A stretch of 21,781 nt of DNA from a virus: UHGV virus genome UHGV-1963057, one strand, 5' to 3'. Shown here piece by piece: positions 329 through 21,219 of this stretch. Positions within the stretch are counted from its first letter, which is position 1; each line of letters starts with the position of its first letter. The notes under the pieces are model-generated. The model saw nothing but the letters and a program-made list of their open reading frames with translations. It ran no database searches and was not told the origin of the DNA. The position numbers and the translations under genes are program-made.

Positions 329-589
329 TTAGTTCTGAGGTAAAGGCAAACTCATCTGATTGTTTCCCCTGTGTGAAGCTGGCAGCTCATGCCACGGGAT
401 ACCTTCTGAAGAGTGAACGGCGGAGGCGTGTTTTGATGTGAATTTATGGAAGGCTTCCAGTGTTGAGAAGCATACGCCGCATTCCAGGTTGTTACACTGG
501 TAATACTTTTGCCGCACGGTGTTTGAATCATTTTCCGGACGACTTGTGCGGATACGGGCAGATGCGCCACAAAGCGGACAACGGAACAT
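329..589 (-). CDS. ogr: Ogr/Delta-family zinc-finger late transcription activator (86 aa)
   Basis: Translation MFRCPLCGASARIRTSRPENDSNTVRQKYYQCNNLECG... has the CxxC-(22)-CxxxxC finger and the N-terminal MF(H/R)CPLC signature of P2 Ogr. ATG at 589 is preceded by GGGAGG with 5-nt spacing. Confidence 0.85.
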   Translation of the reverse strand: MFRCPLCGASARIRTSRPENDSNTVRQKYYQCNNLECGVCFSTLEAFHKFTSKHASAVHSSEGIPWHELPASHRGNNQMSLPLPQN

Positions 590-821: not shown

Positions 822-1991
822 ATGGGAAAGAATAGTCAACGTAGGCGAGATAATAAAATTAAGCGAGAAAATGAGAAAAAAAGAAACTTAGCGGCAAAGA
901 TAAATAAAATGTTGTATATAAAGCCTGATATATTTTTTGATGAATCAGGTAATACTGGCGGAAATTTACTCGATCCATTGCAACCTGTTTTTACCTTAAG
1001 TTCAAGTAGTATTAGTAAACAGGATGCGCTTAAGGCATTAGAACTAACCGGAAGCAAGTCTCCAACAGAAGCCCACTTTAAAACTCTTAGACGTAGAAAA
1101 TCTGGTCAGGATGGCATCATTAGGCTTCTTGAAAGCAAATATGTCAATGAAGAGAATGTTAAAATATACTTGGTCGATAAAAAATACATGCTAACAGCAA
1201 AGATTGTTGATATTTTGATCGAGACGTGGTGCTCTAATAGAGGAATAGATCTTTATATAAATGGACAGAATCTAGCTCTGTCTAATGTTTACTATTTCTG
1301 TTTCCCTGCTTTCTGTGGGGAGGAAAAAACAGAGGTAATGTATCAGTGTTTTATGAATATGATCAGAAGCCAATCGACTGAGTCAATTGATGAATTTTAC
1401 AGGGTAATTGATGAGTTAAAGATATGCTCAAGTGATAAGATATTCACAGATATAATAAACAGAATTAGTATTACCAGAAGCGATATTGATGATATATTGG
1501 AAGGTGTTGAGAAAAGCACATTAGATCCATCTATACCAAGCCTCTTTAGACACTGTGTAGAATGGGGTAAATTATACCCTAATGGTTTTTATATTAAGCA
1601 TGACGATTCCAAAGCTATTACAGAGAAGAAAGATATTTTTGATAAATTTATGGATATATCAAAAATTACGGAGGCATATGGTTATGATCGAAGAAAATTT
1701 GAATTGCCAATTAAAGCTCGTTCTTTGACATTCCATTCATCACAAGAGTATCCTCAATTACAAATTGTAGATATAGTAGCAAGTGCGGCTGCTTATTATG
1801 TTAACTGTCTAAAAAGAAATGACTTAGAAGATTATCTCTTTAAAGAACTTCAAAGAATAAAAATAGATAACTATTTTAAAAATATGGCCATTTGGCCTAC
1901 AACATATGTTACACCTCAAGAATTAGGCACAATTTATACTGGTGGGCGAAACCCTGCAGATGGAGTCGCTGATTATCTTTCTCAATATTAG
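822..1991 (+). CDS. Hypothetical cargo protein, 389 aa, DUF3800-like by motif recollection; Lys/Arg-rich N-terminal tail
   Basis: Long ORF with GAGG 8 nt upstream of the ATG. Visibly AT-rich compared with the flanking phage genes. N-terminal region contains IFFDESGNTG and the C-terminal region QIVDIVASAAAYY, which I recall as the hallmark ends of Pfam DUF3800. Sits between D and ogr on the opposite strand. Confidence 0.8.
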   Translation: MGKNSQRRRDNKIKRENEKKRNLAAKINKMLYIKPDIFFDESGNTGGNLLDPLQPVFTLSSSSISKQDALKALELTGSKSPTEAHFKTLRRRKSGQDGIIRLLESKYVNEENVKIYLVDKKYMLTAKIVDILIETWCSNRGIDLYINGQNLALSNVYYFCFPAFCGEEKTEVMYQCFMNMIRSQSTESIDEFYRVIDELKICSSDKIFTDIINRISITRSDIDDILEGVEKSTLDPSIPSLFRHCVEWGKLYPNGFYIKHDDSKAITEKKDIFDKFMDISKITEAYGYDRRKFELPIKARSLTFHSSQEYPQLQIVDIVASAAAYYVNCLKRNDLEDYLFKELQRIKIDNYFKNMAIWPTTYVTPQELGTIYTGGRNPADGVADYLSQY

Positions 1992-2082: not shown

Positions 2083-3192
2083 TCACGCTGTTTCTGCTAT
2101 CCATTCCGGGATTTTTGCCTCAAGCTCAAGCTGCGTGGTAAAGCCGCTGTTATCAATGGTGTGCTCGGCTTTTGCAATAATCCAGTCCTGATTATCAATC
2201 TCGCTTTTAAATCCTGTTACCGTGCCATGCATTTCGGGGTAGAGTTCTGCACGTCCACGCGCCAGCGTGATGGAAAATGATGCGGCTCCGCGTTGTAGCT
2301 GCTGCCACTTTGCCGCCGCTGCGCGTCTTGCTGCCTGCTCGTTCTGATAAGTCTTGCGTAACACAAACACATTGCCTTCCGCGCCTTCCATATAATCACC
2401 TTCACGGCTGCTGCTTTTCTCCTTTTTGGGTTTTGGCGGTTTGCGGCGTTTCACGCTGACTTTTTTCTTTTTCCCGTAATTAAGATCAAGCCAGTAAGCG
2501 CGTACCCCCGTATACGCCTCGCGGTCAGCAATGCGGAACTGATGGCGATCGCCGCTGCTGCGTGTGATGGCGAACGATGGCAACGGCTGGCCCTGTGCGT
2601 TCACGCCACCACCTGGCATGATGAATAACAGATTGCCGCTTTTTACCGTGGTGATTGCGCCCAGCATTTCCGCCATGCGCGTAAGGAAGGACATATCGCT
2701 TTCTTCGGTCTGGTCGGCGTGGTCGATTTCGATATCCATCAGCATTTCGCTGATTTGCGGTTTCAGACCATACCGATGAGCGATGGCGGATACCACACGC
2801 TCAACGGTCACATCATGCCAGGACACCTCACGTTTAACGTTAAATTCATCCCGAAAATCTGCGCTTCTGGCTGAAACAGTCAGCCTGTCCGGCGGTCCTT
2901 CGTGAGCGATTTCATCAACAATGTAAGTGCCTTTTTCTGTCAGCGGTTCTCCTTTCCAGCCAATGAGAACCGTCAGGCGCGCGCCCCGTGGCGGTAGCTG
3001 CAACTGACCATCCGCATCATCCAGCGTGATGGTGAGCTGGTCCGCGTCAAATCCCCGGTTGTCGGTCAGTGACAGGCTCATCAGGCGCTCTGCCACGCCT
3101 GACAGCGTTTTACCCTCCGCGAGAATATCAAAATCCGGCATTTTCACGGGGTCTGTGCCCTGACTGAGCAATTGCATGGTGGTATCGGTCAT
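2083..3192 (-). CDS. D: Tail protein D (late control gene D family)
   Basis: Translation matches the P2 gpD family over its length. Start chosen at ATG 3192 (MTDTTMQLL...), preceded by GGGAGGG with 5-nt spacing; the six-frame ORF extends further upstream to 3324 without an RBS. Confidence 0.88.
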   Translation of the reverse strand: MTDTTMQLLSQGTDPVKMPDFDILAEGKTLSGVAERLMSLSLTDNRGFDADQLTITLDDADGQLQLPPRGARLTVLIGWKGEPLTEKGTYIVDEIAHEGPPDRLTVSARSADFRDEFNVKREVSWHDVTVERVVSAIAHRYGLKPQISEMLMDIEIDHADQTEESDMSFLTRMAEMLGAITTVKSGNLLFIMPGGGVNAQGQPLPSFAITRSSGDRHQFRIADREAYTGVRAYWLDLNYGKKKKVSVKRRKPPKPKKEKSSSREGDYMEGAEGNVFVLRKTYQNEQAARRAAAAKWQQLQRGAASFSITLARGRAELYPEMHGTVTGFKSEIDNQDWIIAKAEHTIDNSGFTTQLELEAKIPEWIAETA

Positions 3193-3349
3193 CTGTTCCC
3201 TCCCTGTGCGGCATGGTCGCATGTGCGTGCGGAGGGGGTTACTGCTTTTTGTTGTCGCCGGATCGGGAGAACGGCACAGGGGTGAGATTACGCGCGTGGT
3301 GGGTGATGATTGTTGCCGAATCATTTAACGGATACAAGGGGCTAAAGCT

Positions 3350-4534
3350 ATGAGTGAAACTCGTTTTCATGGTGCCCGTGTTACGGAAAATACCGACCTG
3401 GTAACAGCGATTAACGATGTTGATTCCAGCGTTATCGGTATCGTGGCAACGGCGGATGATGCGGACGCGAAGCTGTTCCCGCTGAACAAGCCCACACTGC
3501 TGACCCGCGTCAATGACGTGCTGGGAAAATGCGGGACAACGGGGACGCTTTATCGTGCGCTTAAGGCCATCGCAGACCAGGTGAGCACAAAGGTGATCGT
3601 CGTTCGCGTGGCTGAACACAAAGAAGAAGACGGAAAGACGCAGGATCAACTGGTTATCGGTGGTTCTGAATCTGACGGCAGCTATACGGGGATGTATGCG
3701 CTGCTTGTTGCAGAGCAGGATGAAAGCATCGGATACCGTCCGCGTATTCTGGCCGCGCCGGAGCTGGACACGGAGGCGGTGACAAAATCCCTGTGCGTGA
3801 TTGCGGGTAAACTGCGCGCGTTTGTGTATGCCTCATGTCACGGCTGTAACACGATGGCTGAGGTGATTACCTACCGCCAGAAATTCAACGAACGTGAGGT
3901 GATGCTCTTATGGCCGGACTTCATCGCCTACAACCCGAAAAGTGGCAAAAACGAAACGTTCCCCGCGCCTGCCTATGCGTGCGGCCTTCGTGCGTACATT
4001 GACCATGAGCAGGGATGGCACAAATCACTGTCCAACGTTCCGGTTAAAAATGTGCTGGGGATGTCCAGGCATGTGTTCTGGTCGTTGCAGGCCGAAGACA
4101 GCGATGCCAACAGCCTCAACAACAAAGAAATCACGACCATTATTCGTCGCAACGGGTTCCGCTTCTGGGGCAACCGCACACCGGAAACGAACGCCTACAT
4201 CTTTGAGGTGTATACCCGAACCGCACAGGTGCTGGCTGATTCAATTGCGGAAGCGCAGTTTGAAACCATCGACAGTCCACTGACGCCTGCGAACGTGAAA
4301 GATGTTATCAGTGCCATCAGGGCAAAACTGGATTCACTGGTTACTGCCGGGAAACTGATTGGGGCGTCGTGCTGGTATGACGTGGTGGATAACGGCACCA
4401 CGAATTTACGTCAGGGGCGTGTGCGTATTCGCTACAAATATACGCCTGTTCCCCCGCTGGAAGACATGGAGCTTTACCAGTCGTTTACTGATGAATTCTT
4501 TGGTCCCGCATTTGCGGTGCTGGGAGGTGCCTGA
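3350..4534 (+). CDS. FI: Contractile tail sheath protein FI
   Basis: 394 aa; conserved sheath blocks LFPLNKP, GWHKSLSNV, IRRNGFRFWGNRT, YTRTAQV and YKYTPVPPLE match P2 FI as recalled. AAGGGG lies 8 nt upstream of the ATG. Confidence 0.95.
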   Translation: MSETRFHGARVTENTDLVTAINDVDSSVIGIVATADDADAKLFPLNKPTLLTRVNDVLGKCGTTGTLYRALKAIADQVSTKVIVVRVAEHKEEDGKTQDQLVIGGSESDGSYTGMYALLVAEQDESIGYRPRILAAPELDTEAVTKSLCVIAGKLRAFVYASCHGCNTMAEVITYRQKFNEREVMLLWPDFIAYNPKSGKNETFPAPAYACGLRAYIDHEQGWHKSLSNVPVKNVLGMSRHVFWSLQAEDSDANSLNNKEITTIIRRNGFRFWGNRTPETNAYIFEVYTRTAQVLADSIAEAQFETIDSPLTPANVKDVISAIRAKLDSLVTAGKLIGASCWYDVVDNGTTNLRQGRVRIRYKYTPVPPLEDMELYQSFTDEFFGPAFAVLGGA

Positions 4535-5046
4535 TGGCTGTACCAAAACATCTTCGCTTTTTTACGCTGTTTGTGGATGGTGAAAACGAAGTGGGTAAGG
4601 TGACGTCCGTCACTCTGCCTAAGCTGACGCGCAAAACCGACAGCTACCGGGGTGGTGGCATGATGGGTGCGGTAAGTATTGATCTCGGTCTGGACGACTC
4701 CGCGCTTGATGCGAGCTTTGTCATGGGGGGCGCAGTTCGTGAGCTGTTCCTTAAGTATGGCGGCACGATTGACGGCACGCTGCTGCGTTTTGCGGGTGAA
4801 TACTACACCGATGCAGAAAGCGATCTGTATGAAATCGAGATGCGCGGACGTGTGACGGAAATTGATATGGGGGAAGCCAAACAGGGCGAAGCCACATCAC
4901 ACACTTACGCCATTAAAAACACCTACTACAAGCTGAGTGTTAACGATCGCCCGTTGTGGGAGATTGACCTGCTGAACTTCATTTACCGGAAGGACGGCAA
5001 GGACATTGTGCCCGATCGCATCCGTTCCGCGCTTGGGCTTGGCTGA
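4534..5046 (+). CDS. FII: Tail tube protein FII
   Basis: 170 aa ORF immediately after the sheath gene; its ATG overlaps the FI stop (TGATG). Size and position are those of P2 FII. Confidence 0.9.
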   Translation: MAVPKHLRFFTLFVDGENEVGKVTSVTLPKLTRKTDSYRGGGMMGAVSIDLGLDDSALDASFVMGGAVRELFLKYGGTIDGTLLRFAGEYYTDAESDLYEIEMRGRVTEIDMGEAKQGEATSHTYAIKNTYYKLSVNDRPLWEIDLLNFIYRKDGKDIVPDRIRSALGLG

Positions 5047-5100
5047 TAAGTAATATGCAGGCGGCGCAGTGCGCCGCCTCTGACTGAAAGGAGTTTCCTG

Positions 5101-5466
5101 ATGAAAGAGACGAAAAACATCGATACCGAAAACACGGTAGTTGCTGACACTGTGAAAGAAACCAGTGAGCGTGGCGTAAAACTTACCCAACCAATTGAGC
5201 GAGGCGGCGAAAAAATCACGTATGTGGAGATCACCGGGGCTATTGAGCAGGCTGGATCTCTGCGAGATTTGTCGCTGTCTGATGTGCTGAATCTGAAAGC
5301 GGAATCCATGTTTACGCTGCTGTCACGCGTGACATCACCGCGACTGGATGAAGTGACGATCAAAAAAATGGCATCCCGTGACTTTATTCAGTTATGTGTG
5401 GTTGCCGTAAATTTTTTGAGCGGTGCGGACTCTGGCGGGAAGAACGAACAGGCGACGGAAGCCTGA
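5101..5466 (+). CDS. E: Tail assembly chaperone E (zero-frame product)
   Basis: 121 aa acidic ORF between the tube and tape-measure genes; contains the TTTTTTG slippery heptamer at 5412-5418. Confidence 0.85.
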   Translation: MKETKNIDTENTVVADTVKETSERGVKLTQPIERGGEKITYVEITGAIEQAGSLRDLSLSDVLNLKAESMFTLLSRVTSPRLDEVTIKKMASRDFIQLCVVAVNFLSGADSGGKNEQATEA

Positions 5467-5630
5467 TCACGGTTGTGTGCTTTGAGCACATAGAAGACTT
5501 TGTGGCAGATATTGCCGTTATTTTTAACTGGTCGCCCGCCGAAATCTTCATGATGACGCCCGGCGAAGTGGTTAGCTGGCGTGAGCGGGCGGCACTTCGC
5601 AGCGGGAATGCAGACAATGAAGACTCTTGA
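5101..5630 (+). CDS. E': E+E' fusion product made by programmed -1 frameshift at 5412-5418
   Basis: After slippage at T TTT TTG the -1 frame continues as FFERCGLWREE...NWSPAEIFMMTPGEVVSWRERA... to TGA at 5628-5630, overlapping the start of T. Same heptamer and arrangement as P2 E/E'. Confidence 0.75.
5412..5418 (+). other. -1 ribosomal frameshift slippery site TTTTTTG
   Basis: Heptamer is in the E frame as T-TTT-TTG, with an open -1 frame downstream that encodes the conserved E' extension. Confidence 0.75.
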
Positions 5631-8430
5631 TATCCGGGTCGCTTTCAGCGCCGTTGACAGGCTGACCCGACCTGCAGAAAACGCACGCCGCCTGATGGGG
5701 CAGTTTGGTGACTCCATCCAGCGAACGCAGGGGGCGATCAAAAATCTCGAGCGTCAGGCGCGTTCATTTGAGCGCGCCCGCGACGCTGTCAGTAAAGCGG
5801 ATGCGGGTATCGTGAAAGCACGACGCCAGCTTAACGCCCTTAATCAGTTACAACGCACGGGTACAGTGCTCAGCGAAAAACAACAAAAGCTGATGCAGCA
5901 GTTAAGCACCCGGCTTGAACGCCTGAATGAATCGCGCACACGGGAGATTCAGAAAATGCGGGAGCTTGGCGGAGAGCTGAAACGCCACGGCATTTCCCTG
6001 ACAGGCAGCGATAACACCATCCAGCAGGCCATCAGACGCACCGAACAGTACAACAACCAGCTTGAACGCGAACGGCAGGCGCTTGCGCGTGTAACGCGGG
6101 CGCGTGAGCGGTATTCGCGCGCGCAGGAAACCGCGGGAAAACTGAAAACAGGTGGTGCACTGGCAACAGGTGCGGCAGCGGCGGGCGGCTATGCTGCCGG
6201 GCGTTTTTTGCAGCCCGCGATTGGGTTCGGGAAAGAGATGTCCCGCGTTCAGGCACTGACGCGAATCGACAAAAACAGCCCACAGTTTAAGGCGCTGCGT
6301 GAGCAGGCGTTAAAACTTGGCTCTGAAACGCAGTTCACCGCTGGAGATGCCGCCAGTGGACAGGCATTTCTTGCAATGGCTGGTTTTACTCCGCAGGCCA
6401 TTCAGGCTGCGCTTCCCGGCGTGCTGAGCATGGCAACGGCTGGCGGTATGGATCTCGGCGAGACGGCGGATATTGGCTCAAATATCCTGACGCAGTTCGG
6501 CCTCTCTGCTGACCAGATGGACCGGGTTGGCGACACGCTTACAGCGGCGTTTACCCGTACCAACACTGACCTTCGCGCGCTGGGCGAAACCATGAAATAT
6601 GCAGGTCCGGTGGCGGGTAAGCTGGGAATATCGCTGGAGCAGGCCGCTGCGATGGCGGGCGTGCTGGCGAATATGGGCATCAGAGGGAGTGATGCCGGGA
6701 CGGCAATGCGTGCCAGCCTGGCTCGTCTGGCATCACCGCCAAAGGCGGCAGCAGAGGCGCTGAAAGAGCTGGGTGTGGCTGTCTCTGACGCGAACGGCAA
6801 AATGCGCCCGATGGAGGATGTACTGGCCGACCTTTATAAAGCCACCCGCAAATACGGGGAAGTTGACCGGGTATCGTTCTTTAAGGACATTGCCGGAGAA
6901 GAGGCTTTCACATCGTTTATGGCGCTCGTTGATGCAGCGGGTGACGGCTCCTTACCCAAACTGAGAAAAGAACTTGAAGGCGCGCGCGGTGAGGCTGAAC
7001 GCACAGCAAAGGTTATGGCCAACAACCTTGACGGCGATCTGAAATCACTCGGCAGTGCATGGGAAGGGTTGCGCATCCGCATTGCAGATCTGATTGACGG
7101 TCCGCTGCGTTCTGTCACGCAGTGGCTCACGCGGGTGGTATCAAAGGTGACGGCGCTGGCGCAGGCCCATCCGGCACTGACGCGCCAGCTACTGATTGCA
7201 GGTGGGGCATTGCTGGCGATGACTGCAACGGTCGGCTCGTTGTCGTTGGCTATTGGTGTGCTTGCTGGCCCGCTGGCAAAACTGCGTCTTGGCTTTTCCC
7301 TCCTGACCGGATCAATGAATGCTGTCAGGCTCCTGCCAGCACTATGGGGAATGGTGACGGGTTCCGTTTCGTTACTGGGGGGCGCTATCGGGGCGCTGTT
7401 CAGCCCGGTCGGATTGATTGCTGCTGCGTTTGTGGCTGCGGCGGTTCTCATCTGGAAATACTGGGAACCCATCAAGGCGTTTTATGCAGGGGTGTTCAGT
7501 GGGATTATGGAACGGCTGGCTCCGTTGCGCGAAACCTTTGAACGGTTCGGTCCAGTTTTTGATGTCGTGCGCGATGGGATTATTCAGGTCTTTAACTGGT
7601 TTAAATCGCTGCTGTCACCGATGGAGTCCAGCAAGGAAACGCTGGATAAATGTACCAGTGCTGGCGAGGTATTCGGCAGGGTACTCGGTGGAGCGATAGA
7701 GCTTGTCCTGACGCCAACAAAAGCATTGATGGATTCACTGGCGTGGATACTTGAAAAGCTCGGAGTGCTTCCGGATGAAGCGGAACGGGCGAGAAAGAAA
7801 ATAGAGAACGCTTCAAAGGCTCCTGTAATGTGGGAATGGGATCCGGTTCTCAAGAAAATGGTTCAGAAACCATGGACTCCCGGCCCGGCCCCGTCAGATA
7901 AGGTCGACGACAAAAAAGGCGATAAACCCAGAGACAACAAACCGCTCACAGACAACAATACCGGTACGCTACGCAGACTCAGCAAAATTGCTGATAACAC
8001 AGGTAAGCTGGTTGATGAGACGAAAAAACGCATTGGCCCCGGCGATATTGTCTTTAAGAACCTGCCCCGCGCACTTGCTGTTCGTGGGGAGTGGCAGGAG
8101 CGGAAGATTGCGCAGGTCAGTAAGCCTGCCCCCGCAATTACTATCACACCCGTGGTTCCGGCTCCGCTGCCTCCGGCGCTGGTCCCTGTTGTTGCGGCCA
8201 GCTCCCGCCCGGTGGCGGAGGCTATACGATCGCCAGTGGCATCAGTTCCTGCAACTTCCCGTAACCGGGAGCCTGTTGCCTCCGGATTTGGCGGTGAAAT
8301 TCATGTTCATCTGCATAACGTTGTTACACAGAATCCCCGCGAACTGGCGAAACTGATTGGCGAAATGGTCAGGGCAGAAATGGAACGGCGCGCCCGTGCC
8401 GGGCGTGGCAGTTTTTACGATAAAGATTGA
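5608..8430 (+). CDS. T: Tail tape measure protein T (start at ATG 5608 or 5617)
   Basis: About 940 aa with a coiled-coil-like N-terminal part, a central hydrophobic Gly/Ala-rich segment and a Pro-rich C-terminal region; position after E/E'. The listed ORF begins at GTG 5581; first in-frame ATGs are 5608 and 5617. Confidence 0.9.
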   Translation: MQTMKTLDIRVAFSAVDRLTRPAENARRLMGQFGDSIQRTQGAIKNLERQARSFERARDAVSKADAGIVKARRQLNALNQLQRTGTVLSEKQQKLMQQLSTRLERLNESRTREIQKMRELGGELKRHGISLTGSDNTIQQAIRRTEQYNNQLERERQALARVTRARERYSRAQETAGKLKTGGALATGAAAAGGYAAGRFLQPAIGFGKEMSRVQALTRIDKNSPQFKALREQALKLGSETQFTAGDAASGQAFLAMAGFTPQAIQAALPGVLSMATAGGMDLGETADIGSNILTQFGLSADQMDRVGDTLTAAFTRTNTDLRALGETMKYAGPVAGKLGISLEQAAAMAGVLANMGIRGSDAGTAMRASLARLASPPKAAAEALKELGVAVSDANGKMRPMEDVLADLYKATRKYGEVDRVSFFKDIAGEEAFTSFMALVDAAGDGSLPKLRKELEGARGEAERTAKVMANNLDGDLKSLGSAWEGLRIRIADLIDGPLRSVTQWLTRVVSKVTALAQAHPALTRQLLIAGGALLAMTATVGSLSLAIGVLAGPLAKLRLGFSLLTGSMNAVRLLPALWGMVTGSVSLLGGAIGALFSPVGLIAAAFVAAAVLIWKYWEPIKAFYAGVFSGIMERLAPLRETFERFGPVFDVVRDGIIQVFNWFKSLLSPMESSKETLDKCTSAGEVFGRVLGGAIELVLTPTKALMDSLAWILEKLGVLPDEAERARKKIENASKAPVMWEWDPVLKKMVQKPWTPGPAPSDKVDDKKGDKPRDNKPLTDNNTGTLRRLSKIADNTGKLVDETKKRIGPGDIVFKNLPRALAVRGEWQERKIAQVSKPAPAITITPVVPAPLPPALVPVVAASSRPVAEAIRSPVASVPATSRNREPVASGFGGEIHVHLHNVVTQNPRELAKLIGEMVRAEMERRARAGRGSFYDKD

Positions 8431-8436
8431 GGAGTC

Positions 8437-8931
8437 ATGGCCATGATGATGATCTACGGCATGTTTGTTTTTGAGCTGCGCACATTGCCGCATCAGCAGT
8501 TACAGCAAAACAAAAGCTGGCGGCATGTGAAAAATGAACGCGTTAACCGTTCAGCAAGCTGGCAGTATATCGGCGCAGGTGATGATCGCATCGTGCTTTC
8601 CGGCGTGCTTTATCCTGAAATTACAGGTGGCGAAGTGTCGCTTTCGTTGCTGACCACGCAGGCATATACAGGACGCCCCTGGCCTCTGATTGATGGTGTC
8701 GGGCAGATTTACGGCATGTATGTACTGACTGAAACGAATACGACCCGTTCCGAGTTTGATCGCTACGGTAAGGCGAAAAAGATAGAATTTTCACTGACTC
8801 TTGAACGCTGTGATGAGGATTTGCGGGAGCGCCTGCAATCCTCATCGTTCAGTGATATGCTGTCCGGCTTCAAAGATAAGGTCACATCATCCCTTAACAG
8901 CGCGGCCAGCTCCGTTAAAGGGCTGTTTTGA
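8437..8931 (+). CDS. U: Tail protein U (start may be ATG 8443 or 8446)
   Basis: 164 aa; FVFELRTLPHQ...WRH...GAGDD...PWPLIDG pattern matches the P2 gpU family. GGAG at 8431-8434 is best spaced for the ATG at 8443. Confidence 0.88.
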   Translation: MAMMMIYGMFVFELRTLPHQQLQQNKSWRHVKNERVNRSASWQYIGAGDDRIVLSGVLYPEITGGEVSLSLLTTQAYTGRPWPLIDGVGQIYGMYVLTETNTTRSEFDRYGKAKKIEFSLTLERCDEDLRERLQSSSFSDMLSGFKDKVTSSLNSAASSVKGLF

Positions 8932-8938
8932 TTAACGC

Positions 8939-8974
8939 AAAACCGCTAATGGTCAGATTAGCGGTTTTTATTTT
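8939..8974. terminator. Bidirectional rho-independent terminator between convergent U and invertase genes
   Basis: Perfect 10-bp stem AACCGCTAAT (8941-8950) / ATTAGCGGTT (8957-8966), extendable to 12 bp with the AA/TT pairs at 8939-8940 and 8967-8968; loop GGTCAG; T-rich run on the plus strand and AAAA on its 5' side. Confidence 0.7.
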
Positions 8975-9557
8975 CCTGAGTCTGCCTGGTTGTTTCTTCA
9001 GCCTGTATATCGCCTACAGGGTGATAACGATAAATCGTCGATATGCCGATGTCGTAAATGATCGCCAGTTGTTTCCTGTCATGACCGTTTTTAATCAGCC
9101 TCGCTATTTGCTCGTGTTGTTCTTTTGTCAACTTCGGGCGACGTCCGCCAATGCGTCCTTGTGCGCGTGCTGCTGCCAGCCCGGCCAGTGTACGCTCTAC
9201 AATTAATTCACGTTCCATTTCGGCTAAAGCCCCCATGACGTGAAAAAAGAAACGCCCCATGGGTGTTGATGTGTCAATGCTGTCCGTCAGACTACGGAAA
9301 TTAACACCTTTTTCCCGCAATTCCTCAATAAGCGTGATCAGGTGTTTCATACTTCTGCCCAGTCTGTCCAGCTTCCAGACAACCAGCGTATCTCCTTCTG
9401 ATAGCGTTCTGAGCAGTTTTTTCAATCCCGGTCTGGCTGATTTCGTTCCGCTGATTTTATCTTCAAAAATCAGTTCACATCCTGCGCAGTTCAGTGCATT
9501 GCGTTGTAAATCCGTGTTCTGGTCATTTGTTGACACACGAATATAGCCAATTTGCAT
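8958..9557 (-). CDS. Serine recombinase, Hin/Gin/Cin/Pin-family DNA invertase
   Basis: 199 aa. MQIGYIRVSTNDQNTDLQRNAL...GDTLVVWKLDRLGRS...MGRFFFHVMGALAEMERELIVERT...GRIGGRRPKLT... is near-identical in pattern to Hin/Gin, including the catalytic Ser in RVST and a C-terminal HTH. Confidence 0.95.
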   Translation of the reverse strand: MQIGYIRVSTNDQNTDLQRNALNCAGCELIFEDKISGTKSARPGLKKLLRTLSEGDTLVVWKLDRLGRSMKHLITLIEELREKGVNFRSLTDSIDTSTPMGRFFFHVMGALAEMERELIVERTLAGLAAARAQGRIGGRRPKLTKEQHEQIARLIKNGHDRKQLAIIYDIGISTIYRYHPVGDIQAEETTRQTQENKNR

Positions 9558-9612
9558 AAAAAAACATCCTCTTTGTTTCGTGAAAAATACAGAGTTGGTA
9601 TAGGTAGGGATA

Positions 9613-9638
9613 AAAACGAAAACGTTGGTTTAGGAGAA
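9613..9638. other. Invertase crossover site (hix/gix-like 26-bp site), invertase-proximal
   Basis: AAAACGAAAACG-TT-GGTTTAGGAGAA; the right half fits the GGTTTnnGAnAA half-site and the central dinucleotide falls in the shared GLGE codons. Lies 56 bp from the invertase start. Confidence 0.7.
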
Positions 9639-10127
9639 GCGGCGAAAAGGGATGTGGGCACGACAGTCGGAACCGTTGCCGCTGGTGATGATTTACGCAT
9701 AATAGGAGCACTTCAAAAGGCAAATAATCTTTATGAGTTAACAAATAAATCTGACGCAAGAGCTAATCTTGGGTTAGGAACCGTTGCAACAAAAAACGTG
9801 GGAAATAGTGCTGGGCAAATACCTGATATGTCTTACTGGTCTTCACCGGCAGGCGGAATTAATTTCCCGAATGGGTTCCAGATGCGATTCGGGACTATCG
9901 CTGGTACTGGTGGAAAATTATTTTCTACGCCATTTACAAATCAGTGCTATGGCATTGTTTTCGGACAAACATATGGAGCCAACTACTGGATGTTCAGCCC
10001 GATGTACAGAGCATCTGATCTGAGTAATACCAGTTTTGCATTCATTAACAAAACCTGGTCTGGCGTTCCGGGGGTAGGTTCTCAGGACGCTGGTGAATCA
10101 GTTTTTTATATTGCAGTAGGGTATTAA
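9627..10127 (+). CDS. Silent alternative tail-fibre C-terminal cassette (Hv'), expressed only after inversion
   Basis: Open frame from the crossover core to TAA 10125-10127. Joining at the core fuses in frame to the H constant region (...DYLGLGE|AAKRDVG...). The listed ORF start at 9552 lies outside the segment and is not a real start. Confidence 0.75.
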   Translation, partial: GLGEAAKRDVGTTVGTVAAGDDLRIIGALQKANNLYELTNKSDARANLGLGTVATKNVGNSAGQIPDMSYWSSPAGGINFPNGFQMRFGTIAGTGGKLFSTPFTNQCYGIVFGQTYGANYWMFSPMYRASDLSNTSFAFINKTWSGVPGVGSQDAGESVFYIAVGY

Positions 10128-10128
10128 T

Positions 10129-10572
10129 ATGGAAATGGTTTATAGCGCCTCAAAAAATAGTTTTTTCGCTAAAAATGATGTGGCGAAATATGAACAGGCC
10201 GGATGGGAACTTGCTGATGTTGTCGAAGTGACATATGACACTTACCTGGAATTTATTGAAGACAGAACGTTGCAAGGGAAAGTACGCATCGCGGGTGATG
10301 ATGGCCTTCCCACCTGGGGGGAAATTCCACCGCCAACTCATGAGGAACAAATTGCTGCAGCCGAACTGGAAAAGCAGCAATTGATTAATCAGGTCAACGA
10401 ATACATATACAGTAAGCAATGGCCTGGTAAAGCGGCGATTGGTCGCCTGAAAGGTGAGGAACTGGCGCAATATAATTTGTGGCTGGATTATCTGGACGCA
10501 CTGGAACTGGTCGATACTTCCGGTGCGCCAGATATTGAATGGCCTACGCCTCCGGCAGTTCAGGCCAGATGA
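10129..10572 (+). CDS. Tail fibre assembly protein (alternative, paired with Hv')
   Basis: 147 aa starting 1 nt after the Hv' stop; the C-terminal ...DYLDALELVDTSGAPDIEWPTPP mirrors the C-terminus of the minus-strand assembly protein. 3' end overlaps its convergent partner. Confidence 0.8.
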   Translation: MEMVYSASKNSFFAKNDVAKYEQAGWELADVVEVTYDTYLEFIEDRTLQGKVRIAGDDGLPTWGEIPPPTHEEQIAAAELEKQQLINQVNEYIYSKQWPGKAAIGRLKGEELAQYNLWLDYLDALELVDTSGAPDIEWPTPPAVQAR

Positions 10573-11137
10573 CGTCCGGCGCTGTGCTGGTATCTGTTGC
10601 CGTCACCGCGTCAATATAATCCAGCACAGCGTTAAGTCGGGTGTTTTCTGGCTGCGTCAGCTTCCGCCCGGCCTGTAATTTCAGTTGAATCAGACTGATG
10701 GAAGCCATTGCAGCATCAATCAGCGACTGGCGCTGTGCTTCTGCAGCTTCTACTGCGGCGCTATGCTGTGCCTCGGTATCCGTCACCCATTTCTCACCAT
10801 CCCATTTATCGTATGGCGTTAACGGTGAAAGCGTGACATAACCGTCTTTGATGGCACCGATATAATCCACTGTAACAGCTGCGCCATTTTCAGTTGAGTA
10901 AACGGTCTCATTGCGATGGTCTTCTTCATGGCTCCATCCCTTACCCGTAAATACTGCCACTCTTCCCGGAATGTATTCGCCCGGGTCAATACCAGTGGAA
11001 CAAACGGGCATACTTACGCCAGTATTAATATATTCATCAGACCAGCCCGTATATTCAGACGTTACTGCATCATAATAATAACAACGCATATCACCCGGCA
11101 CTGTAGCCAGCCCATTTTCATCAAAAACAGGTTTCAT
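10544..11137 (-). CDS. G: Tail fibre assembly protein G (currently expressed orientation)
   Basis: 197 aa; start overlaps the H stop; C-terminal ...LDYIDAVTATDTSTAPDVIWPELP is typical of fibre assembly chaperones. Confidence 0.85.
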   Translation of the reverse strand: MKPVFDENGLATVPGDMRCYYYDAVTSEYTGWSDEYINTGVSMPVCSTGIDPGEYIPGRVAVFTGKGWSHEEDHRNETVYSTENGAAVTVDYIGAIKDGYVTLSPLTPYDKWDGEKWVTDTEAQHSAAVEAAEAQRQSLIDAAMASISLIQLKLQAGRKLTQPENTRLNAVLDYIDAVTATDTSTAPDVIWPELPEA

Positions 11138-12735
11138 TATGCAGCCCTCACAATATAATTAAAGGCGATGTTACGTGGACGGTTTTCATTAGCTGTTGGC
11201 ACGACACGAGAGGCGTCGAATCCAAGGTCATCGGTTTTGCCTATATCAGTTGTGTTATTCGGCATTCTCGCAGATCGTGTTCCTGCATCATAAAAAGCCC
11301 CTCTGATTGCATCAAAAGACATACCGATCCCGCCATCTGCGAATCCCTCAATATTTCTTATTGCATCCCCCTGTGAAGATAATAATTGTCGCCCGGCATC
11401 CACACCACGTCCGTCATCCCAGCCACGAATAAATTCACCGCGTAAATCCGGCAATTTATTTGTCGGATAAACCTTTGCCAGTTCCGGGTATTCTTCAGCA
11501 GAAAAAGCCGCACCGTTGCATTTCAGCCAGCCAGTAGGCGGTGTGGCTGAAGGCCACGGAACAGGCACACCAACGGGTAATGCCGAACCTTCTCCCAAAC
11601 CAAGGTAATCAAGAACTCCCTGAGTGCTGGTTTTACCAAGAATGGCACGTCCAACACTTGTCAACGCGGTTAACGCGGCACGATCTGCCCCTGTAAAATA
11701 TGGGAGTTTATCTGCTGATGTAGCAAGCTCCGCCAGCGCCGTCAGGGTGGCATCCTTCGGTTGCTTACCCGCAAGCGCGTTAGTCATGGTGGTCGCAAAA
11801 TTCGGGTCATTGCCCAGCGCTGCAGCCAGTTCGTTCAGCGTGTTCAGTGCATCAGGTGACGAATCTACAAGTGCGGCAATCGCAGCCATAACGAAAGCCG
11901 TGCTTGCGATCTGGGTACTATTAGTCCCCTGTGGCGCTGTTGGTGTTGTTGGCGTTCCGGTCAGTGCCGGGCTGTTTAATGGTGCTTTCTTGTTCGTTTC
12001 ATCCATTACCGCCTTAACAGCTTTTGGTGTCGCTGCCAGCGTTTCAGACGTGCTGTTCGTGGCGCTACTGAGCTGAACAATCCCTTTTTGTGTAGTGGTG
12101 GCGTTCTGGGCGGTATATTTCCCGTTAGCCAGGTCATATGCAGCCTTAACCGCTTTCGGTGTTGCGGCCAGTGTTTCTGATTCACTGTTAATTGCACTGC
12201 TTAACTGAGTAAAACCTTTTACGGTCAGCGAGGCGTCCGGGTGACGTCGTGACTGTTCGTGTTCTGATATTTTATCATCCACATATTTGCGGGTTGCCAG
12301 AACCACAGACGGGTCGATTTTCAGCGTGATGGCTTCGGTGTTCGTGACAACCAGAATCATGCGGATAGTCTGGGTGCGTCCACTGCCTTCCTGCAACTGC
12401 GGTTTGTACGTTTCCGGGCAGTTTGCCACCGCAATGAGTGCACCTTCATCATCATAAAGACCAATCTCACGGATCCAGAATCCTCCCTCGTTTTCAGGGA
12501 TGATTTGCTCCGCAATAATCTGGCTCTGATTGTTAGGGTCAACACTCAGAAGATTCAGCGGTGCAATGCGTTTCTGGTTAATCAGTTTTGTTTGTGCAGG
12601 GTCTGGTGTTGGTAACACACCATTTGCATCACCAACGGCCATTTGCGTCAGATTCAGCTTACTGCCGAGCATCGTCGCGTTAGCCAGTCGTGCTGCGCCC
12701 TGATTAGTCAGAATGGCGTAGTATTTCACTGTCAT
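11137..12735 (-). CDS. H: Tail fibre protein H (constant N-terminal region fused to the current variable C-terminus)
   Basis: 532 aa; N-terminus MTVKYYAILTNQGAARLANA... and repeated TPKAVKA motifs are typical of P2/Mu/P1-type fibres. Crossover site lies near codon 377. ATG overlaps the stop of I. Confidence 0.9.
   Translation of the reverse strand: MTVKYYAILTNQGAARLANATMLGSKLNLTQMAVGDANGVLPTPDPAQTKLINQKRIAPLNLLSVDPNNQSQIIAEQIIPENEGGFWIREIGLYDDEGALIAVANCPETYKPQLQEGSGRTQTIRMILVVTNTEAITLKIDPSVVLATRKYVDDKISEHEQSRRHPDASLTVKGFTQLSSAINSESETLAATPKAVKAAYDLANGKYTAQNATTTQKGIVQLSSATNSTSETLAATPKAVKAVMDETNKKAPLNSPALTGTPTTPTAPQGTNSTQIASTAFVMAAIAALVDSSPDALNTLNELAAALGNDPNFATTMTNALAGKQPKDATLTALAELATSADKLPYFTGADRAALTALTSVGRAILGKTSTQGVLDYLGLGEGSALPVGVPVPWPSATPPTGWLKCNGAAFSAEEYPELAKVYPTNKLPDLRGEFIRGWDDGRGVDAGRQLLSSQGDAIRNIEGFADGGIGMSFDAIRGAFYDAGTRSARMPNNTTDIGKTDDLGFDASRVVPTANENRPRNIAFNYIVRAA
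11590..11615. other. Invertase crossover site inside H (distal site)
   Basis: TTCTCCCAAACC-AA-GGTAATCAAGAA; the left half fits the TTnTCnnAAACC half-site exactly. It is the inverted counterpart of the 9613-9638 site, matching it at 13 of 14 positions across the conserved half-site and core. Confidence 0.7.
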
Positions 12736-14232: not shown

Positions 14233-14583
14233 TTACTCCTTCAGCGTGATGGTTAACTCAACATTCTGCATGGTCTGCATGACAGTGCCCGACAGCGTCA
14301 CCCCGGCGCGGCCTCCCGCTTTCCAGACAACGTCGATGGCGTCCAGGGCAATGCGGGGTTCCCATCGTGTCAGCGCAATCACGGCAGCACTCATGCATTG
14401 CAGACGAGTTGTGTTATTCATGGGTTCGTCAATCAAATCAGGCACAAGGCTGCCATATTCCCGTCGCATAACCCGGCTTGCCAGCGGGGTGATCAGGATG
14501 TCCCTGACTGACTGTTTCAGGTGCTCCATATCGTTCAGGTTTCCCGTCCCGTCCGGATTCATTCCTGTGTAGCGGGTTGTCAC
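14233..14583 (-). CDS. W: Baseplate protein W (gp25-like)
   Basis: 116 aa; GTG start overlapping the V stop (GTGA), preceded by AGGAGG. Confidence 0.85.
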   Translation of the reverse strand: MTTRYTGMNPDGTGNLNDMEHLKQSVRDILITPLASRVMRREYGSLVPDLIDEPMNNTTRLQCMSAAVIALTRWEPRIALDAIDVVWKAGGRAGVTLSGTVMQTMQNVELTITLKE

Positions 14584-15161
14584 TGCGGGCCTCCTGTCGA
14601 ATCGCTGCCACCTTTAACGCCACCGTGCTTATGCGTATGCACTGTGATGCCGTTTGAGGTGAAATCGCCGCCGCTGTGCGTGATATTGCCGCTCATCTTT
14701 CCCCCTTTTGTGACGTCAAGCGTCGCTGTTCTCAGAAGGTCTGTGCATTCCACGACGGGCGTATCCAGTGTCACGCTGACGGATGCCTGCAGGGTGGCTG
14801 TTTTCATGCCGCTGGCGCTCAGTGCGCCTGCGTCCGTGTCGTAGCGGAACACCGCGCCATCCGGCGCGCTGATCACGATTTCTTTCAGGCTTTTGCCGGG
14901 GGCCGGACTGGCATCACTCCACAGGCTGCCAATTATCATGGCGGTTTCCGGGTTGCCGCCAATGCAGGCAATTACCACCTGTTCGCCTGGTGATGGCGGC
15001 AGCCACACATTGAAGGCTCCCGCGCGCGTGGTGTTCCAGCGCAGCCAGCCTGTTTCCAGTTCGCCGCTGCGAACGCGCACGCACCAGGATTCCTCATCAA
15101 CTTCAGAGATGATCCCGGTACGGATGATGTTGCTCAGCAGTCGCATGAGTTCTGCGCTCAC
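14580..15161 (-). CDS. V: Baseplate spike protein V
   Basis: 193 aa; C-terminal ...GNITHSGGDFTSNGITVHTHKHGG... resembles the His-rich spike tip of P2 gpV as I recall it. GTG start overlapping the S stop, preceded by GGAGG. Confidence 0.85.
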   Translation of the reverse strand: MSAELMRLLSNIIRTGIISEVDEESWCVRVRSGELETGWLRWNTTRAGAFNVWLPPSPGEQVVIACIGGNPETAMIIGSLWSDASPAPGKSLKEIVISAPDGAVFRYDTDAGALSASGMKTATLQASVSVTLDTPVVECTDLLRTATLDVTKGGKMSGNITHSGGDFTSNGITVHTHKHGGVKGGSDSTGGPQ

Positions 15162-15793
15162 CGTACAGCCTCCGCAATCCGGCCCAGCACCGTGTTATAA
15201 ATCAGGCGCTCATCTGCCTGGCTGATACCCAGCAGCTCACGTACCGGGTAATCGGTGAAAATGCCCGGCGCAACCTGATCGCGCTCACCGAACTGATGAA
15301 CGCGTGCAATACGTGCGGCCACGCCGCTGTAACCCACCGTCACACCGGAAGCATCTGCACGGGCTTTCAGGTAGCGGGCGGTGCGCAGTTTTACGAACAT
15401 GGGGACGCGCTTTGTGCTGTCCTGGTTGATGCGCCGGGTGCGTATTTCCAGAAAACGGTCGATGTCATCCCGGTAAAACGTGCGGATATTGTTTTTATCC
15501 TCATCCCACCCGGTAATGGTTCGCCCGTATTTCCCCGTGTCGTGATGCCAGTTTTTCAGCGTGCGTGCTTCGTTATTCCAGATAAAGCGAATGCGCTCCT
15601 GTATCCGGGTTACGCGGCGTCTGCGTGGTGTCCATGCGGTCCCGTCCGGCGCTTTCTGTGACCGGATGCGCGCCTGCTGGGCGCGGCGTAAATCCTGTGC
15701 CAGCTTTCTGGCGATGTTATTGATGGCCTGCTGATTCAGGCTGTCGCGGATGGCCTCAAAGGTTTCATCCACACGGGTGAATGCCTTATCCAT
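15158..15793 (-). CDS. S: Tail completion / virion morphogenesis protein S
   Basis: Position between R and V. Start chosen at first ATG 15793 with GGGGTGA upstream; the listed ORF starts at GTG 15802. Family assignment is from position and size, which is longer than P2 gpS. Confidence 0.7.
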   Translation of the reverse strand: MDKAFTRVDETFEAIRDSLNQQAINNIARKLAQDLRRAQQARIRSQKAPDGTAWTPRRRRVTRIQERIRFIWNNEARTLKNWHHDTGKYGRTITGWDEDKNNIRTFYRDDIDRFLEIRTRRINQDSTKRVPMFVKLRTARYLKARADASGVTVGYSGVAARIARVHQFGERDQVAPGIFTDYPVRELLGISQADERLIYNTVLGRIAEAVR

Positions 15794-16253
15794 CGCTTTC
15801 ACCCCACGTCACATCCTGGAATATATGCGACCAGTCGCCTTCGGAAGATGGCAGACGGGGTTTTGGCTCCGGCAGGTGCTCTGCCTGCGGTGTCCCCTGA
15901 CTGCTGCGCGTAATGCGAACGCGTTCCCGCAGGGGGAGCGTAAACAGGAGATCGGCGCTGTCATCGTCATTGATAACGGCGGAGAATTTGATGTCCTGAT
16001 TACGCTCCGGATTGAGCAACAACTGTGGCTGATTTTCGGATAACCACGCCAGTAGCGGCAGCGTGAGGTCGTCCAGCTCCCCGGCGTAATCCATGACAAA
16101 CATCACCATCTGATAGCGGTAAACAAACGAGGGCGTTTCTCCGGTCGTTTCAATGTTGCCGCTCTCCACGAAAATGGTGAATTTTTCCGGGTTGGCCTGA
16201 CACCATCGGCATGAACGGGTCATGGCTTCACGCAGGGAATCAGTTTTCAGCAT
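15786..16253 (-). CDS. R: Tail completion protein R
   Basis: 155 aa, the size of P2 gpR; lies directly after the lysis cassette; AGGA 8 nt upstream of the ATG. Confidence 0.8.
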   Translation of the reverse strand: MLKTDSLREAMTRSCRWCQANPEKFTIFVESGNIETTGETPSFVYRYQMVMFVMDYAGELDDLTLPLLAWLSENQPQLLLNPERNQDIKFSAVINDDDSADLLFTLPLRERVRITRSSQGTPQAEHLPEPKPRLPSSEGDWSHIFQDVTWGESDG

Positions 16254-16560
16254 GGTTGTTGTCCTCGTTGTTCAGTCGTTGCAGTCTGCGCTGTTCCAGT
16301 AATTCAATGGCCCGTTTATCCGCGTTACAGGTTTCCAGTGCATCCAGAAGGCGGTCGCCCCATATACCGAGATTTCCCCATGTGGGAGTGTCAGGGAAGG
16401 GGGGAGGCGTTACCGGTATGGTCAGCGTCTGCGGTATAAGCCGGACTGACGGCGCTGGCCGTGGCGCGTTCTGCGTGCCTGCGCAACCTGTCAGTAAAAC
16501 GAGCATCAGACAAAGCGTGGGCGCATTCATCTTTTGCAATATCGTTGCGTAGCTGTTCAC
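16240..16560 (-). CDS. lysC: LysC-type o-spanin (Rz1-like outer-membrane lipoprotein); GTG 16560 or ATG 16530 start
   Basis: Lipobox LLTGC after a hydrophobic signal segment, a Pro-rich mature region, and a start embedded in a different frame inside lysB. Confidence 0.65.
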   Translation of the reverse strand: MNSYATILQKMNAPTLCLMLVLLTGCAGTQNAPRPAPSVRLIPQTLTIPVTPPPFPDTPTWGNLGIWGDRLLDALETCNADKRAIELLEQRRLQRLNNEDNNHAEN

Positions 16561-21065: not shown

Positions 21066-21219
21066 AGTTTTTGCCCCTCTGACTGGTTCTTCAGTCATGA
21101 TGGCAAAGCGTAACAGGCTGATACAAAGGGCTTTTGTTGTAAGAAAACAGTCAGAACAGGGGGTTAAGGAGAACGGTTTCGCGCGCGGGTAATCTTCCTG
21201 TAATTACTCAGGGGGAGCA

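What the first reader, a model, noticed from the sequence alone, without database searches (positions are those of the whole stretch)
3193..8957. The tail sheath-tube-chaperone-tape measure-U operon is inverted relative to canonical P2 gene order
In P2-family genomes V-W-J-I-H-G-FI-FII-E-T-U-D-ogr are all co-directional. Here V through G and D plus ogr are on the minus strand, but FI-FII-E/E'-T-U (3350-8931) are on the plus strand, so FI diverges from D and U converges on the invertase gene. Both junctions look tidy: a 157-bp divergent spacer at 3193-3349 and a strong bidirectional terminator at 8939-8974. This could be an established arrangement, a large inversion that separated D from its operon, or an assembly error. 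It abuts a serine invertase gene, but I found no hix-like site at either boundary.
Basis: partly seen in the sequence, partly recalled or inferred. Interest (0 to 1): 0.6.

Follow-up and report, generated by a model that had tools for sequence, protein, structure and literature searches.

The report
Fixed tail-operon inversion in P88-like prophages
The sheath-to-U tail genes really do run opposite to phage P2's order, but this is the normal, fixed layout of a large, already sequenced group of P2-like phages (P88, SEN5 and relatives), not an error or a switch.

Summary
D (2083-3192) and ogr lie on the minus strand. FI-FII-E/E'-T-U (3350-8931) lie on the plus strand. A 157-bp divergent spacer separates D from FI, and a hairpin terminator (8939-8968) lies between U and a serine invertase gene.

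It is ordinary, however. The same layout occurs in induced, infective phages: P88 (Xuanwuvirus) and SEN5 (Senquatrovirus). It also occurs in 82 of 82 IMG/VR and reference loci and in about 40 prophages from more than 20 genera of Enterobacterales. The D|FI junction is present in 1355 of 5426 complete E. coli genomes. None of 1414 genomes carrying these genes has a P2-type U-to-D junction.

Most relatives with the inversion have no invertase. Here the invertase has its own hix-like sites (9613-9638 and 11590-11615) around a tail-fibre switch segment, and there are none at the FI-U boundaries. The finding therefore meets its own refutation criterion: it is a lineage trait.

One result goes beyond the finding. 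The spacer has a rigid conserved core: one Ogr-type dyad (3253-3270) lies exactly 34 nt from a -10-like hexamer on each side. This suggests one activator site drives both FI and the detached D gene. That is inferred from sequence and has not been shown experimentally.

The parts
329..589 (-). ogr-like late activator gene (86 aa, C4 zinc finger)
   Evidence: Pfam Ogr_Delta, E 4.7e-14. It is 38% identical to the Ogr-type regulator of a P2-type phage.
2083..3192 (-). gene D (tail/baseplate hub, 369 aa), detached from the FI-U operon
   Evidence: phrog_52 tail protein and Pfam Phage_GPD. The ATG at 3192 follows GGGAGGG. It is 99% identical to P88 D and 49% identical to P2-type D.
3193..3349 (.). 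157-bp divergent D|FI spacer holding the proposed bidirectional late promoter
   Evidence: Sequence. Conserved-block footprint across 40 spacers.
3213..3221 (-). predicted extended -10 of a D promoter (TGcGACCAT); predicted start near 3206
   Evidence: It lies 34 nt from the dyad in 37 of 40 related spacers. TG, A2, A5 and T6 are conserved while the leader length varies from 18 to 22 nt. No transcript data.
3253..3270 (.). Ogr-type dyad TGTcgccggatcgggAGA (T[G/C]T-N12-ACA when read towards D)
   Evidence: Found at the same position in 38 of 40 spacers checked (window, P88 and 36 of 38 loci), with about 30 different N12 fillers. It matches the P2 late-promoter consensus TGT-N12-ACA (PMC3931495) and the extended TGTTGT...ACAACA motif (PMC5694545).
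3305..3310 (+). predicted -10 of the FI promoter (GATGAT), counterpart of P2 PF; predicted start near 3317
   Evidence: It lies 34 nt from the dyad in 40 of 40 spacers. The same 34-nt spacing is seen upstream of FI in the P2-type comparator.
3350..4534 (+). FI, tail sheath
   Evidence: phrog_23 tail sheath, E 6e-125. It is 47% identical to P2-type FI.
4534..5046 (+). FII, tail tube
   Evidence: phrog_55. It occupies the tube gene's position in P88 and SEN5.
5101..5630 (+). E (5101-5466) and the E' frame (ORF 5394-5630), tail chaperones
   Evidence: phrog_103. ORFs. P88 annotates two matching CDSs. The frameshift itself was not tested.
5581..8430 (+). T, tape measure protein (ORF from the first GTG; P88's annotated start corresponds to about 5617)
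   Evidence: phrog_28 tape measure, E 6e-216.
8437..8931 (+). U, tail protein, last gene of the inverted block
   Evidence: phrog_76. 99% identical to P88 U.
8939..8968 (.). hairpin terminator shared by the convergent U and invertase genes
   Evidence: 12-bp stem, -15.6 and -14.7 kcal/mol on the two strands, z about -5.
8958..9557 (-). serine DNA invertase (Hin/Gin/Cin/Pin type), not involved in the FI-U inversion
   Evidence: phrog_125 DNA invertase; Pfam Resolvase plus HTH_7. It is 90% identical to the invertase of a P2-type phage with canonical gene order.
9613..11615 (.). invertible tail-fibre segment between inverted crossover sites TTCTCCTAAACCAACG... (9613-9638, minus strand) and TTCTCCCAAACCAAGG... 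(11590-11615, plus strand)
   Evidence: Oppositely oriented fibre-tip and chaperone genes lie inside it (9552-10127 and 10129-10572 on +, 10544-11137 on -).
21138..21155 (.). second dyad (TGT-N12-AGA) in the divergent O|P spacer, with -10-like hexamers 34 nt (P side) and 35 nt (O side) away
   Evidence: It shows the same design as the D|FI spacer within this genome.

Best explanation
The window is the late region of a P88-like (Xuanwuvirus) prophage of the family Peduoviridae. In the common ancestor of a large clade of P2-like phages, the FI-FII-E/E'-T-U block, together with its PF promoter, was inverted once. The breakpoints lay upstream of the PF activator site and between U and D. This clade corresponds to D proteins at least about 62% identical to this one and includes Xuanwuvirus, Senquatrovirus and many prophages of Enterobacterales. 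The arrangement has been fixed ever since. It is not an assembly error, not a recent accident and not a product of the neighbouring serine invertase, which only flips the tail-fibre segment at 9613-11615. All of this is shown.

The following is inferred. In P2, D is the last, translationally coupled gene of the F operon. Here D is expressed from its own late promoter, which shares the single Ogr-type dyad (3253-3270) with the FI promoter. The dyad lies exactly 34 nt from a -10-like hexamer on each side, so it is centred at about -55.5 of both predicted start sites (about 3317 for FI, about 3206 for D). One bound activator would then switch on both divergent transcripts. The same design appears in the O|P spacer.

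I put the lineage-trait part at about 0.97 and the shared-dyad promoter at about 0.55.
For: Same order and strands in phage P88 and phage SEN5, which has no invertase.

The 1.3-kb D|FI junction is present in 13 phage records at 93-99% identity and in 1355 of 5426 complete E. coli genomes.

A synthetic canonical U-to-D junction is matched as one piece in 0 of 1414 genomes that carry the genes.

About 40 prophage loci from more than 20 genera, with D 64-99% identical, all show V W J I H on one strand, U T E FII FI on the other, then D. 82 of 83 further loci are divergent; the one exception is the canonical Kapieceevirus phage, whose D is 52% identical.

P2-type phage NC_041848 has the invertase cassette (invertase 90% identical) but canonical order, and its U stop overlaps the D start.

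[quoted passage not shown] SEN4/5 virions have contractile tails (PMC5261728).

Promoter model: the dyad is found in 38 of 40 spacers checked (window, P88 and 36 of 38 loci). The FI-side hexamer is 34 nt away in 40 of 40 spacers. The D-side TGn-hexamer is 34 nt away in 37 of 40. Meanwhile N12 and the leader lengths vary. The PF region of the P2-type phage has the same 34-nt spacing. The P2 consensus is TGT-N12-ACA and related motifs (PMC3931495, PMC5694545). In Smp131 one such element is annotated for both PP' and PO' (PMC3931495).
Against: There are no transcript or binding data for this lineage.

The window's dyad has one mismatch (AGA in place of ACA), and both -10 hexamers are weak (GATGAT, GACCAT).

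The conserved TGn extended -10 on the D side could act without an activator.

A conserved CGCGCG block next to it is unexplained and might be a site for another factor.

The direction of the rearrangement (canonical order as ancestral) rests on two canonical comparators checked here plus general knowledge of P2, 186, phiCTX and R-pyocin gene order, not on a rooted tree.

The loci are related to each other, so the counts are not independent events.
Confidence: 0.8

Rival explanations
1. The arrangement is a lineage trait, but the dyad serves only FI. D is transcribed from an activator-independent extended -10 promoter, or under another regulator that binds the conserved CGCGCG block.
For: The D-side element carries a conserved TG extension, which can compensate for a missing -35. 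A conserved C.CGCGCGC block lies directly upstream of it and is unexplained. The D-proximal geometry has not been tested experimentally.
Against: The D-side hexamer keeps an exact 34-nt distance to the dyad in 37 of 40 spacers, although indels occur freely in the adjacent leaders. An independent promoter would not need that. The distance equals the one on the FI side and the one in P2-type PF. The O|P spacer repeats the design.
Confidence: 0.3
2. FI-U is a reversible invertible segment flipped by the adjacent serine invertase. It would be a second, large substrate, and the window caught one state.
For: An invertase gene abuts the block.
Against: There is no crossover-like site within 3 mismatches at either boundary and no flanking inverted repeat beyond chance. 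The invertase's own sites bracket the tail-fibre segment. None of 1414 E. coli genomes has the other orientation. Most loci with the inversion lack any invertase. A phage with the invertase has canonical order.
Confidence: 0.02
3. Assembly error, or a recent strain-specific inversion that orphaned D and left the prophage tail-defective.
For: None beyond the departure from P2 order. This particular copy does carry an insertion sequence (IS) in its terminase gene.
Against: The junction is identical in hundreds of independently finished genomes and in virion-derived phage genomes. D keeps an intact ORF, a Shine-Dalgarno sequence and 99% identity to P88 D. Phages with this layout make infective particles with contractile tails (PMC6456863, PMC5261728).
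Confidence: 0.01

Closest known systems
Escherichia phage P88 (Xuanwuvirus P88, NC_026014) and relatives 500465-2, 520873, P884B11, PhiR44_2 and Citrobacter phage phiSM
   Same: Identical gene order and strands from ogr through D | FI..U | invertase | fibre switch | H..V. About 94-95% DNA identity over 79-83% of the window, and 93-99% protein identity for D, FI, FII, E, T and U.
   Different: P88 has only about 60 bp between D and ogr, whereas the window carries a 389-aa low-GC DUF3800 gene there. The fibre tips differ (H 64% identical). The window's terminase gene is interrupted by ISEc13.
Salmonella phages SEN4/SEN5 (Senquatrovirus)
   Same: Same inverted FI-U block with a divergent D. D is 63% identical.
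   Different: They have no invertase and no invertible fibre segment. G converges directly on U.
Phage P2 and P2-type Peduovirus magyaro NC_041848; Klebsiella phage ST512-KPC3phi13.2 (Kapieceevirus)
   Same: Same gene set. Same type of Ogr activator. The same dyad-34 nt-hexamer layout upstream of FI. NC_041848 even has the same invertase cassette in the same place.
   Different: FI FII E E' T U D ogr are co-directional and form one operon (PMC3931495). The U stop overlaps the D start. D and FI are only 47-52% identical to the window's.
Din-family invertible segments (Mu G/Gin, P1 C/Cin, e14 P/Pin, Salmonella Hin)
   Same: The window's invertase and its 26-bp inverted sites around alternative fibre-tip and chaperone genes fit this kind of switch. 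The resemblance of the sites to hixL and gix is from memory.
   Different: This system accounts for the segment 9613-11615 only, not for the FI-U block.
Stenotrophomonas phage Smp131 late promoters
   Same: One TGT-N12-ACA element is annotated for both divergent promoters PP' and PO', and tail genes are rearranged relative to P2 (PMC3931495).
   Different: The shared element lies at the P/O junction and not at a D|FI junction. The rearrangement is a different one. The promoters were predicted, not tested.

Membership tests
Peduoviridae (P2-like) late tail gene cluster | Homologues of V W J I H G, FI FII E T U D and an Ogr/Delta zinc-finger activator | tested here: met
   PHROGs and Pfam hits for every gene. 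32-74% protein identity to a P2-type phage.
Peduoviridae (P2-like) late tail gene cluster | Canonical P2 operon structure: FI FII E E' T U D co-directional and read from PF | tested here: not met
   FI-U is on the + strand and D on the - strand. The canonical comparators are co-directional. This is a feature of P2 itself and not of the whole family.
Peduoviridae (P2-like) late tail gene cluster | Late promoters with an activator dyad TGT-N12-ACA centred near -55 | tested here: inconclusive
   One-mismatch dyads with the right spacing to -10-like hexamers lie in the two divergent spacers. Binding and transcript starts were not tested.
P88-like phages (Xuanwuvirus and sister clades with inverted FI-U) | High DNA identity and full synteny with P88, including the divergent D|FI junction | tested here: met
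Serine-invertase (Din-type) invertible segment, as an explanation of the FI-U inversion | Inverted crossover sites at both ends of the segment | tested here: not met
   No site within 3 mismatches near 3193-3349 or 8932-8957, and no flanking inverted repeat.
Serine-invertase (Din-type) invertible segment, as an explanation of the FI-U inversion | Both orientations found among closely related genomes | tested here: not met
   1355 genomes carry the D|FI junction and 0 of 1414 carry the U-to-D junction.
Serine-invertase (Din-type) invertible segment, for the tail-fibre region 9613-11615 | Invertase gene next to a segment bounded by inverted 26-bp sites and holding alternative fibre tips and chaperones | tested here: met
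   Actual flipping was not tested.

The most novel reading that the evidence does not exclude
In this clade the inversion placed the palindromic PF activator site next to D and created a true bidirectional late promoter. One Ogr-type dyad is centred at -55.5 of two divergent start sites, within a rigid 98-bp core (hexamer, 34 nt, 18-nt dyad, 34 nt, hexamer) conserved across more than 20 genera. The O|P spacer uses the same design. The whole late regulon would then run from two shared activator sites instead of four separate ones as described for P2.
Probability: 0.5. Interest if true: 0.4.

Novelty: already known. Interest (0 to 1): 0.2.

Why it matters
The result has three practical uses.

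1. It removes a false alarm. Annotators and assembly checkers should expect FI-U to run opposite to D in P88-like prophages. These occur in about a quarter of complete E. coli genomes and in many other Enterobacterales.

2. It shows that the neighbouring invertase should not be credited with the rearrangement.

3. The conserved symmetrical spacer is a compact, testable case of how a gene cut off from its operon by an inversion can be rescued by sharing a palindromic activator site. If confirmed, it would be a small addition to the P2 late-regulation model and a ready-made Ogr-dependent bidirectional promoter.

Tried and rejected
- An exact TGT-N12-ACA search gave 5 hits in the window, none of them in a late intergenic region and no more than chance. 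The site appeared only after allowing one mismatch and using the cross-genus footprint.
- Local alignment of the D|FI and O|P spacers was inconclusive.
- The inverted-repeat search across 2900-9700 returned only short, low-identity pairs typical of chance, none of them bracketing the block.
- A composite scan (dyad plus spacing plus hexamer) found no convincing promoter upstream of V or R, so how V-G is transcribed stays open. Read-through from the O promoter is possible.
- The alignment-based IMG/VR scan returned only close relatives (D at least 62% identical), so it did not sample canonical-order clades. Canonical order was checked in only two phages.
- Literature searches found the P88, phiSM, SEN4/5 and Serratia PP4 papers, but none of them mentions the inversion. 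Julien and Calendar 1995 is not held in the library.
- PADLOC gave no hit for the DUF3800 cargo gene.
- E. coli AR_0013 matches the junction at 100% identity, but it is not the source genome: it lacks the DUF3800 gene and has other cargo.
Full report
**What is in the window.** ORF listing and family searches show the late region of a P2-like prophage.
- Minus strand: an Ogr/Delta zinc-finger gene (329-589), D (2083-3192), a serine invertase (8958-9557), then H, I, J, W, V, S and R and the lysis and head genes.
- Plus strand: sheath FI (3350-4534), tube FII (4534-5046), E/E' (5101-5630), tape measure T (5581-8430) and U (8437-8931).

D starts at the ATG at 3192, behind GGGAGGG, and not at the upstream in-frame ATG at 3324. 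The hairpin at 8939-8968 folds at -15.6 and -14.7 kcal/mol on the two strands, with z about -5.

**Is it really inverted relative to P2?** Yes. A P2-type phage (Peduovirus magyaro, NC_041848) carries the same invertase and invertible fibre cassette, with an invertase 90% identical. It has invertase-FI-FII-E-E'-T-U-D-ogr all co-directional, and its U stop overlaps the D start. Relative to that layout the window differs by one clean inversion of FI..U. The breakpoints lie between the invertase and the FI promoter region, and between U and D. D and FI are only 47-49% identical to the P2-type proteins, so this is a different lineage and not a rearranged P2.

**Is it an artefact, a local accident or a lineage trait?** It is a lineage trait.
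- The whole window is 94-95% identical over about 80% of its length to Escherichia phages 500465-2, P88, 520873, P884B11 and PhiR44_2 and to Citrobacter phage phiSM.
- P88's RefSeq annotation shows the same order and strands.
- The 1.3-kb piece spanning the D|FI junction occurs intact in 13 phage records and in 1355 of 5426 complete E. coli genomes.
- I built the junction a canonical arrangement would have, the 3' end of U followed by the 5' end of D. None of the 1414 genomes carrying these genes matches it as one piece.
- A scan of one genome per species with the D protein gave 47 loci in Salmonella, Trabulsiella, Symbiopectobacterium, Edwardsiella, Serratia, Kluyvera, Erwinia, Enterobacter, Mixta, Pantoea, Kosakonia, Citrobacter, Pectobacterium, Izhakiella, Brenneria, Klebsiella, Raoultella, Yokenella, Rouxiella and others, with D 64-99% identical. 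Every locus long enough to judge (about 40) has V W J I H on one strand, U T E FII FI on the other, then D.
- Eighty IMG/VR contigs with D 62-100% identical all show the same.
- Salmonella phage SEN5 (Senquatrovirus, D 63% identical) has the inversion and no invertase.
- Klebsiella phage ST512-KPC3phi13.2 (Kapieceevirus, D 52% identical) is canonical.

The inversion therefore marks a clade and is old. Phages with this layout are viable. P88 lyses many E. coli strains and phiSM is an active temperate phage (PMC6456863). SEN4/5 virions have contractile tails (PMC5261728). None of the papers I could read comments on the inversion.

**The invertase is a bystander.** Only a minority of the loci with the inversion encode an invertase. 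In the window the invertase has its own substrate. Two inverted 26-bp sites share the half-site TTCTCCYAAACCAA, at 9613-9638 (minus strand) and 11590-11615 (plus strand). They bracket oppositely oriented fibre-tip and chaperone genes. No comparable site and no meaningful inverted repeat lies at either FI-U boundary.

**How D is probably expressed (inferred).** In P2, D is the last gene of the PF operon FI FII E E' T U D, and the late promoters carry TGT-N12-ACA and depend on Ogr (PMC3931495, PMC5694545). [quoted passage not shown] Cut off from that operon, D needs its own signal.

I aligned the D|FI spacer from the window, P88 and 38 loci. The alignment shows a rigid core inside otherwise variable DNA.
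- A dyad T(G/C)T-N12-ACA, read towards D, lies at window positions 3253-3270. It is present at the same place in 38 of 40 spacers checked (window, P88 and 36 of 38 loci), with about 30 different N12 fillers.
- On the FI side a hexamer (GATGAT here, GATTAT in most others) lies exactly 34 nt away in 40 of 40 spacers.
- On the D side an extended -10-like element, TGnNANNAT (TGcGACCAT at 3221-3213), lies exactly 34 nt away in 37 of 40. The other three have 35, 35 and 37 nt.
- The leaders downstream of each hexamer vary in length: 18-22 nt for D in all but two atypical loci, and 29-39 nt for FI. Indels are therefore tolerated outside the core but not inside it.

With the usual 7 nt from hexamer to start site, the dyad is centred at -55.5 of both predicted starts (about 3317 and about 3206). 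That is the position described for P2 late promoters, as I recall from Christie and Calendar 1985; I could not check it in the library. The P2-type comparator has TGT-N12-AAC with the same 34-nt spacing upstream of FI, so the FI side is the PF counterpart.

The O|P divergent spacer of the window repeats the design. It has TGT-N12-AGA at 21138-21155, with TAATCT 34 nt away towards P and TGnCATCAT 35 nt away towards O. A relaxed whole-window scan finds two-sided matches only in these two spacers. A single element serving both PP' and PO' has been annotated in phage Smp131 (PMC3931495).

My reading is that the inversion carried the palindromic PF site next to D, and one activator site now serves two divergent promoters. 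This is sequence inference only. An activator-independent extended -10 promoter for D remains a real alternative. A conserved CGCGCG block beside the D-side element is unexplained.

**Comparison with what is known, and novelty.** The gene set, the activator and the promoter grammar are those of P2-like phages. The operon order is that of P88 (Xuanwuvirus) and SEN4/5 (Senquatrovirus), which are annotated in public records. The window is simply another copy, and probably a defective one, because an IS4-family ISEc13 end interrupts the terminase gene from about 21640. The finding as stated is therefore already known in the databases, and it fulfils its own refutation condition. The shared-dyad architecture is the only part that may be new, and it is untested.

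**Verdict.** The interpretation reduces to the mundane option: a fixed lineage trait, unrelated to the invertase. Interest is low (0.2). The most novel reading not excluded is a conserved bidirectional Ogr-dependent promoter, with probability about 0.5 and modest interest if true.

Noticed in passing
window 21640-21781: The terminase large-subunit gene P starts at 21220 on the + strand. From about 21640 it is interrupted by the end of an IS4-family ISEc13 element (CTGTCTCTTGATCAGATCT at 21643-21661, 97-99% identical to ISEc13 copies). This prophage copy is probably unable to package DNA. No complete E. coli genome in the collection has this exact junction.
   Followed up: partly
window 822-1991 (+): A 389-aa gene with 34-36% GC, against about 55% around it, sits between D and ogr on the opposite strand. 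It hits Pfam DUF3800 and phrog_12991 and has no PADLOC hit. P88 has only about 60 bp at this spot. The same insert is in IMG/VR loci L053 and L064, and inserts of similar size (about 1.4-1.5 kb, not characterised) separate D and ogr in L004 and L045. The D-ogr gap looks like a cargo hotspot.
   Followed up: partly
window 9613-9638 (-) and 11590-11615 (+): Hix/gix-like crossover sites bound a roughly 2-kb invertible segment with alternative tail-fibre tips and chaperones (9552-10127 and 10129-10572 on the + strand, against 10544-11137 and the H 3' end on the - strand). This is the real substrate of the invertase at 8958-9557.
   Followed up: partly
window 3222-3235 and the matching columns in 40 related spacers; also 3294-3299 and 21181-21188: A GC block (C.CGCGCGC) lies directly upstream of the D-side -10-like element in nearly all related spacers. 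CGCGCG also sits between the dyad and the -10 of the FI and P promoters in the window. Its function is unknown.
   Followed up: no
window 14580-16400: No dyad plus hexamer match and no intergenic gap precede V, which has its own promoter PV in P2. The V-G genes may be read through from the O promoter in this lineage.
   Followed up: partly
window 21065 / 21098 (-): The O (scaffold) ORF is listed from the ATG at 21098. The ATG at 21065, behind GAGGGG, matches the length annotated in P88 and leaves room for the predicted O promoter.
   Followed up: partly
L047 (Trabulsiella odontotermitis), about 9960-10060: This locus has an insertion of about 80 nt between the D-side -10-like element and the D start codon, and its H/I/J genes lie on the opposite strand from the usual layout. 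It is a rearranged variant of the clade.
   Followed up: no
L004 (record titled Vagococcus sp.) and L045 (Planococcaceae MAG): Prophage DNA of E. coli type, 98-99% identical, appears in assemblies labelled as Firmicutes. This is most likely contamination or mis-binning of those assemblies.
   Followed up: no
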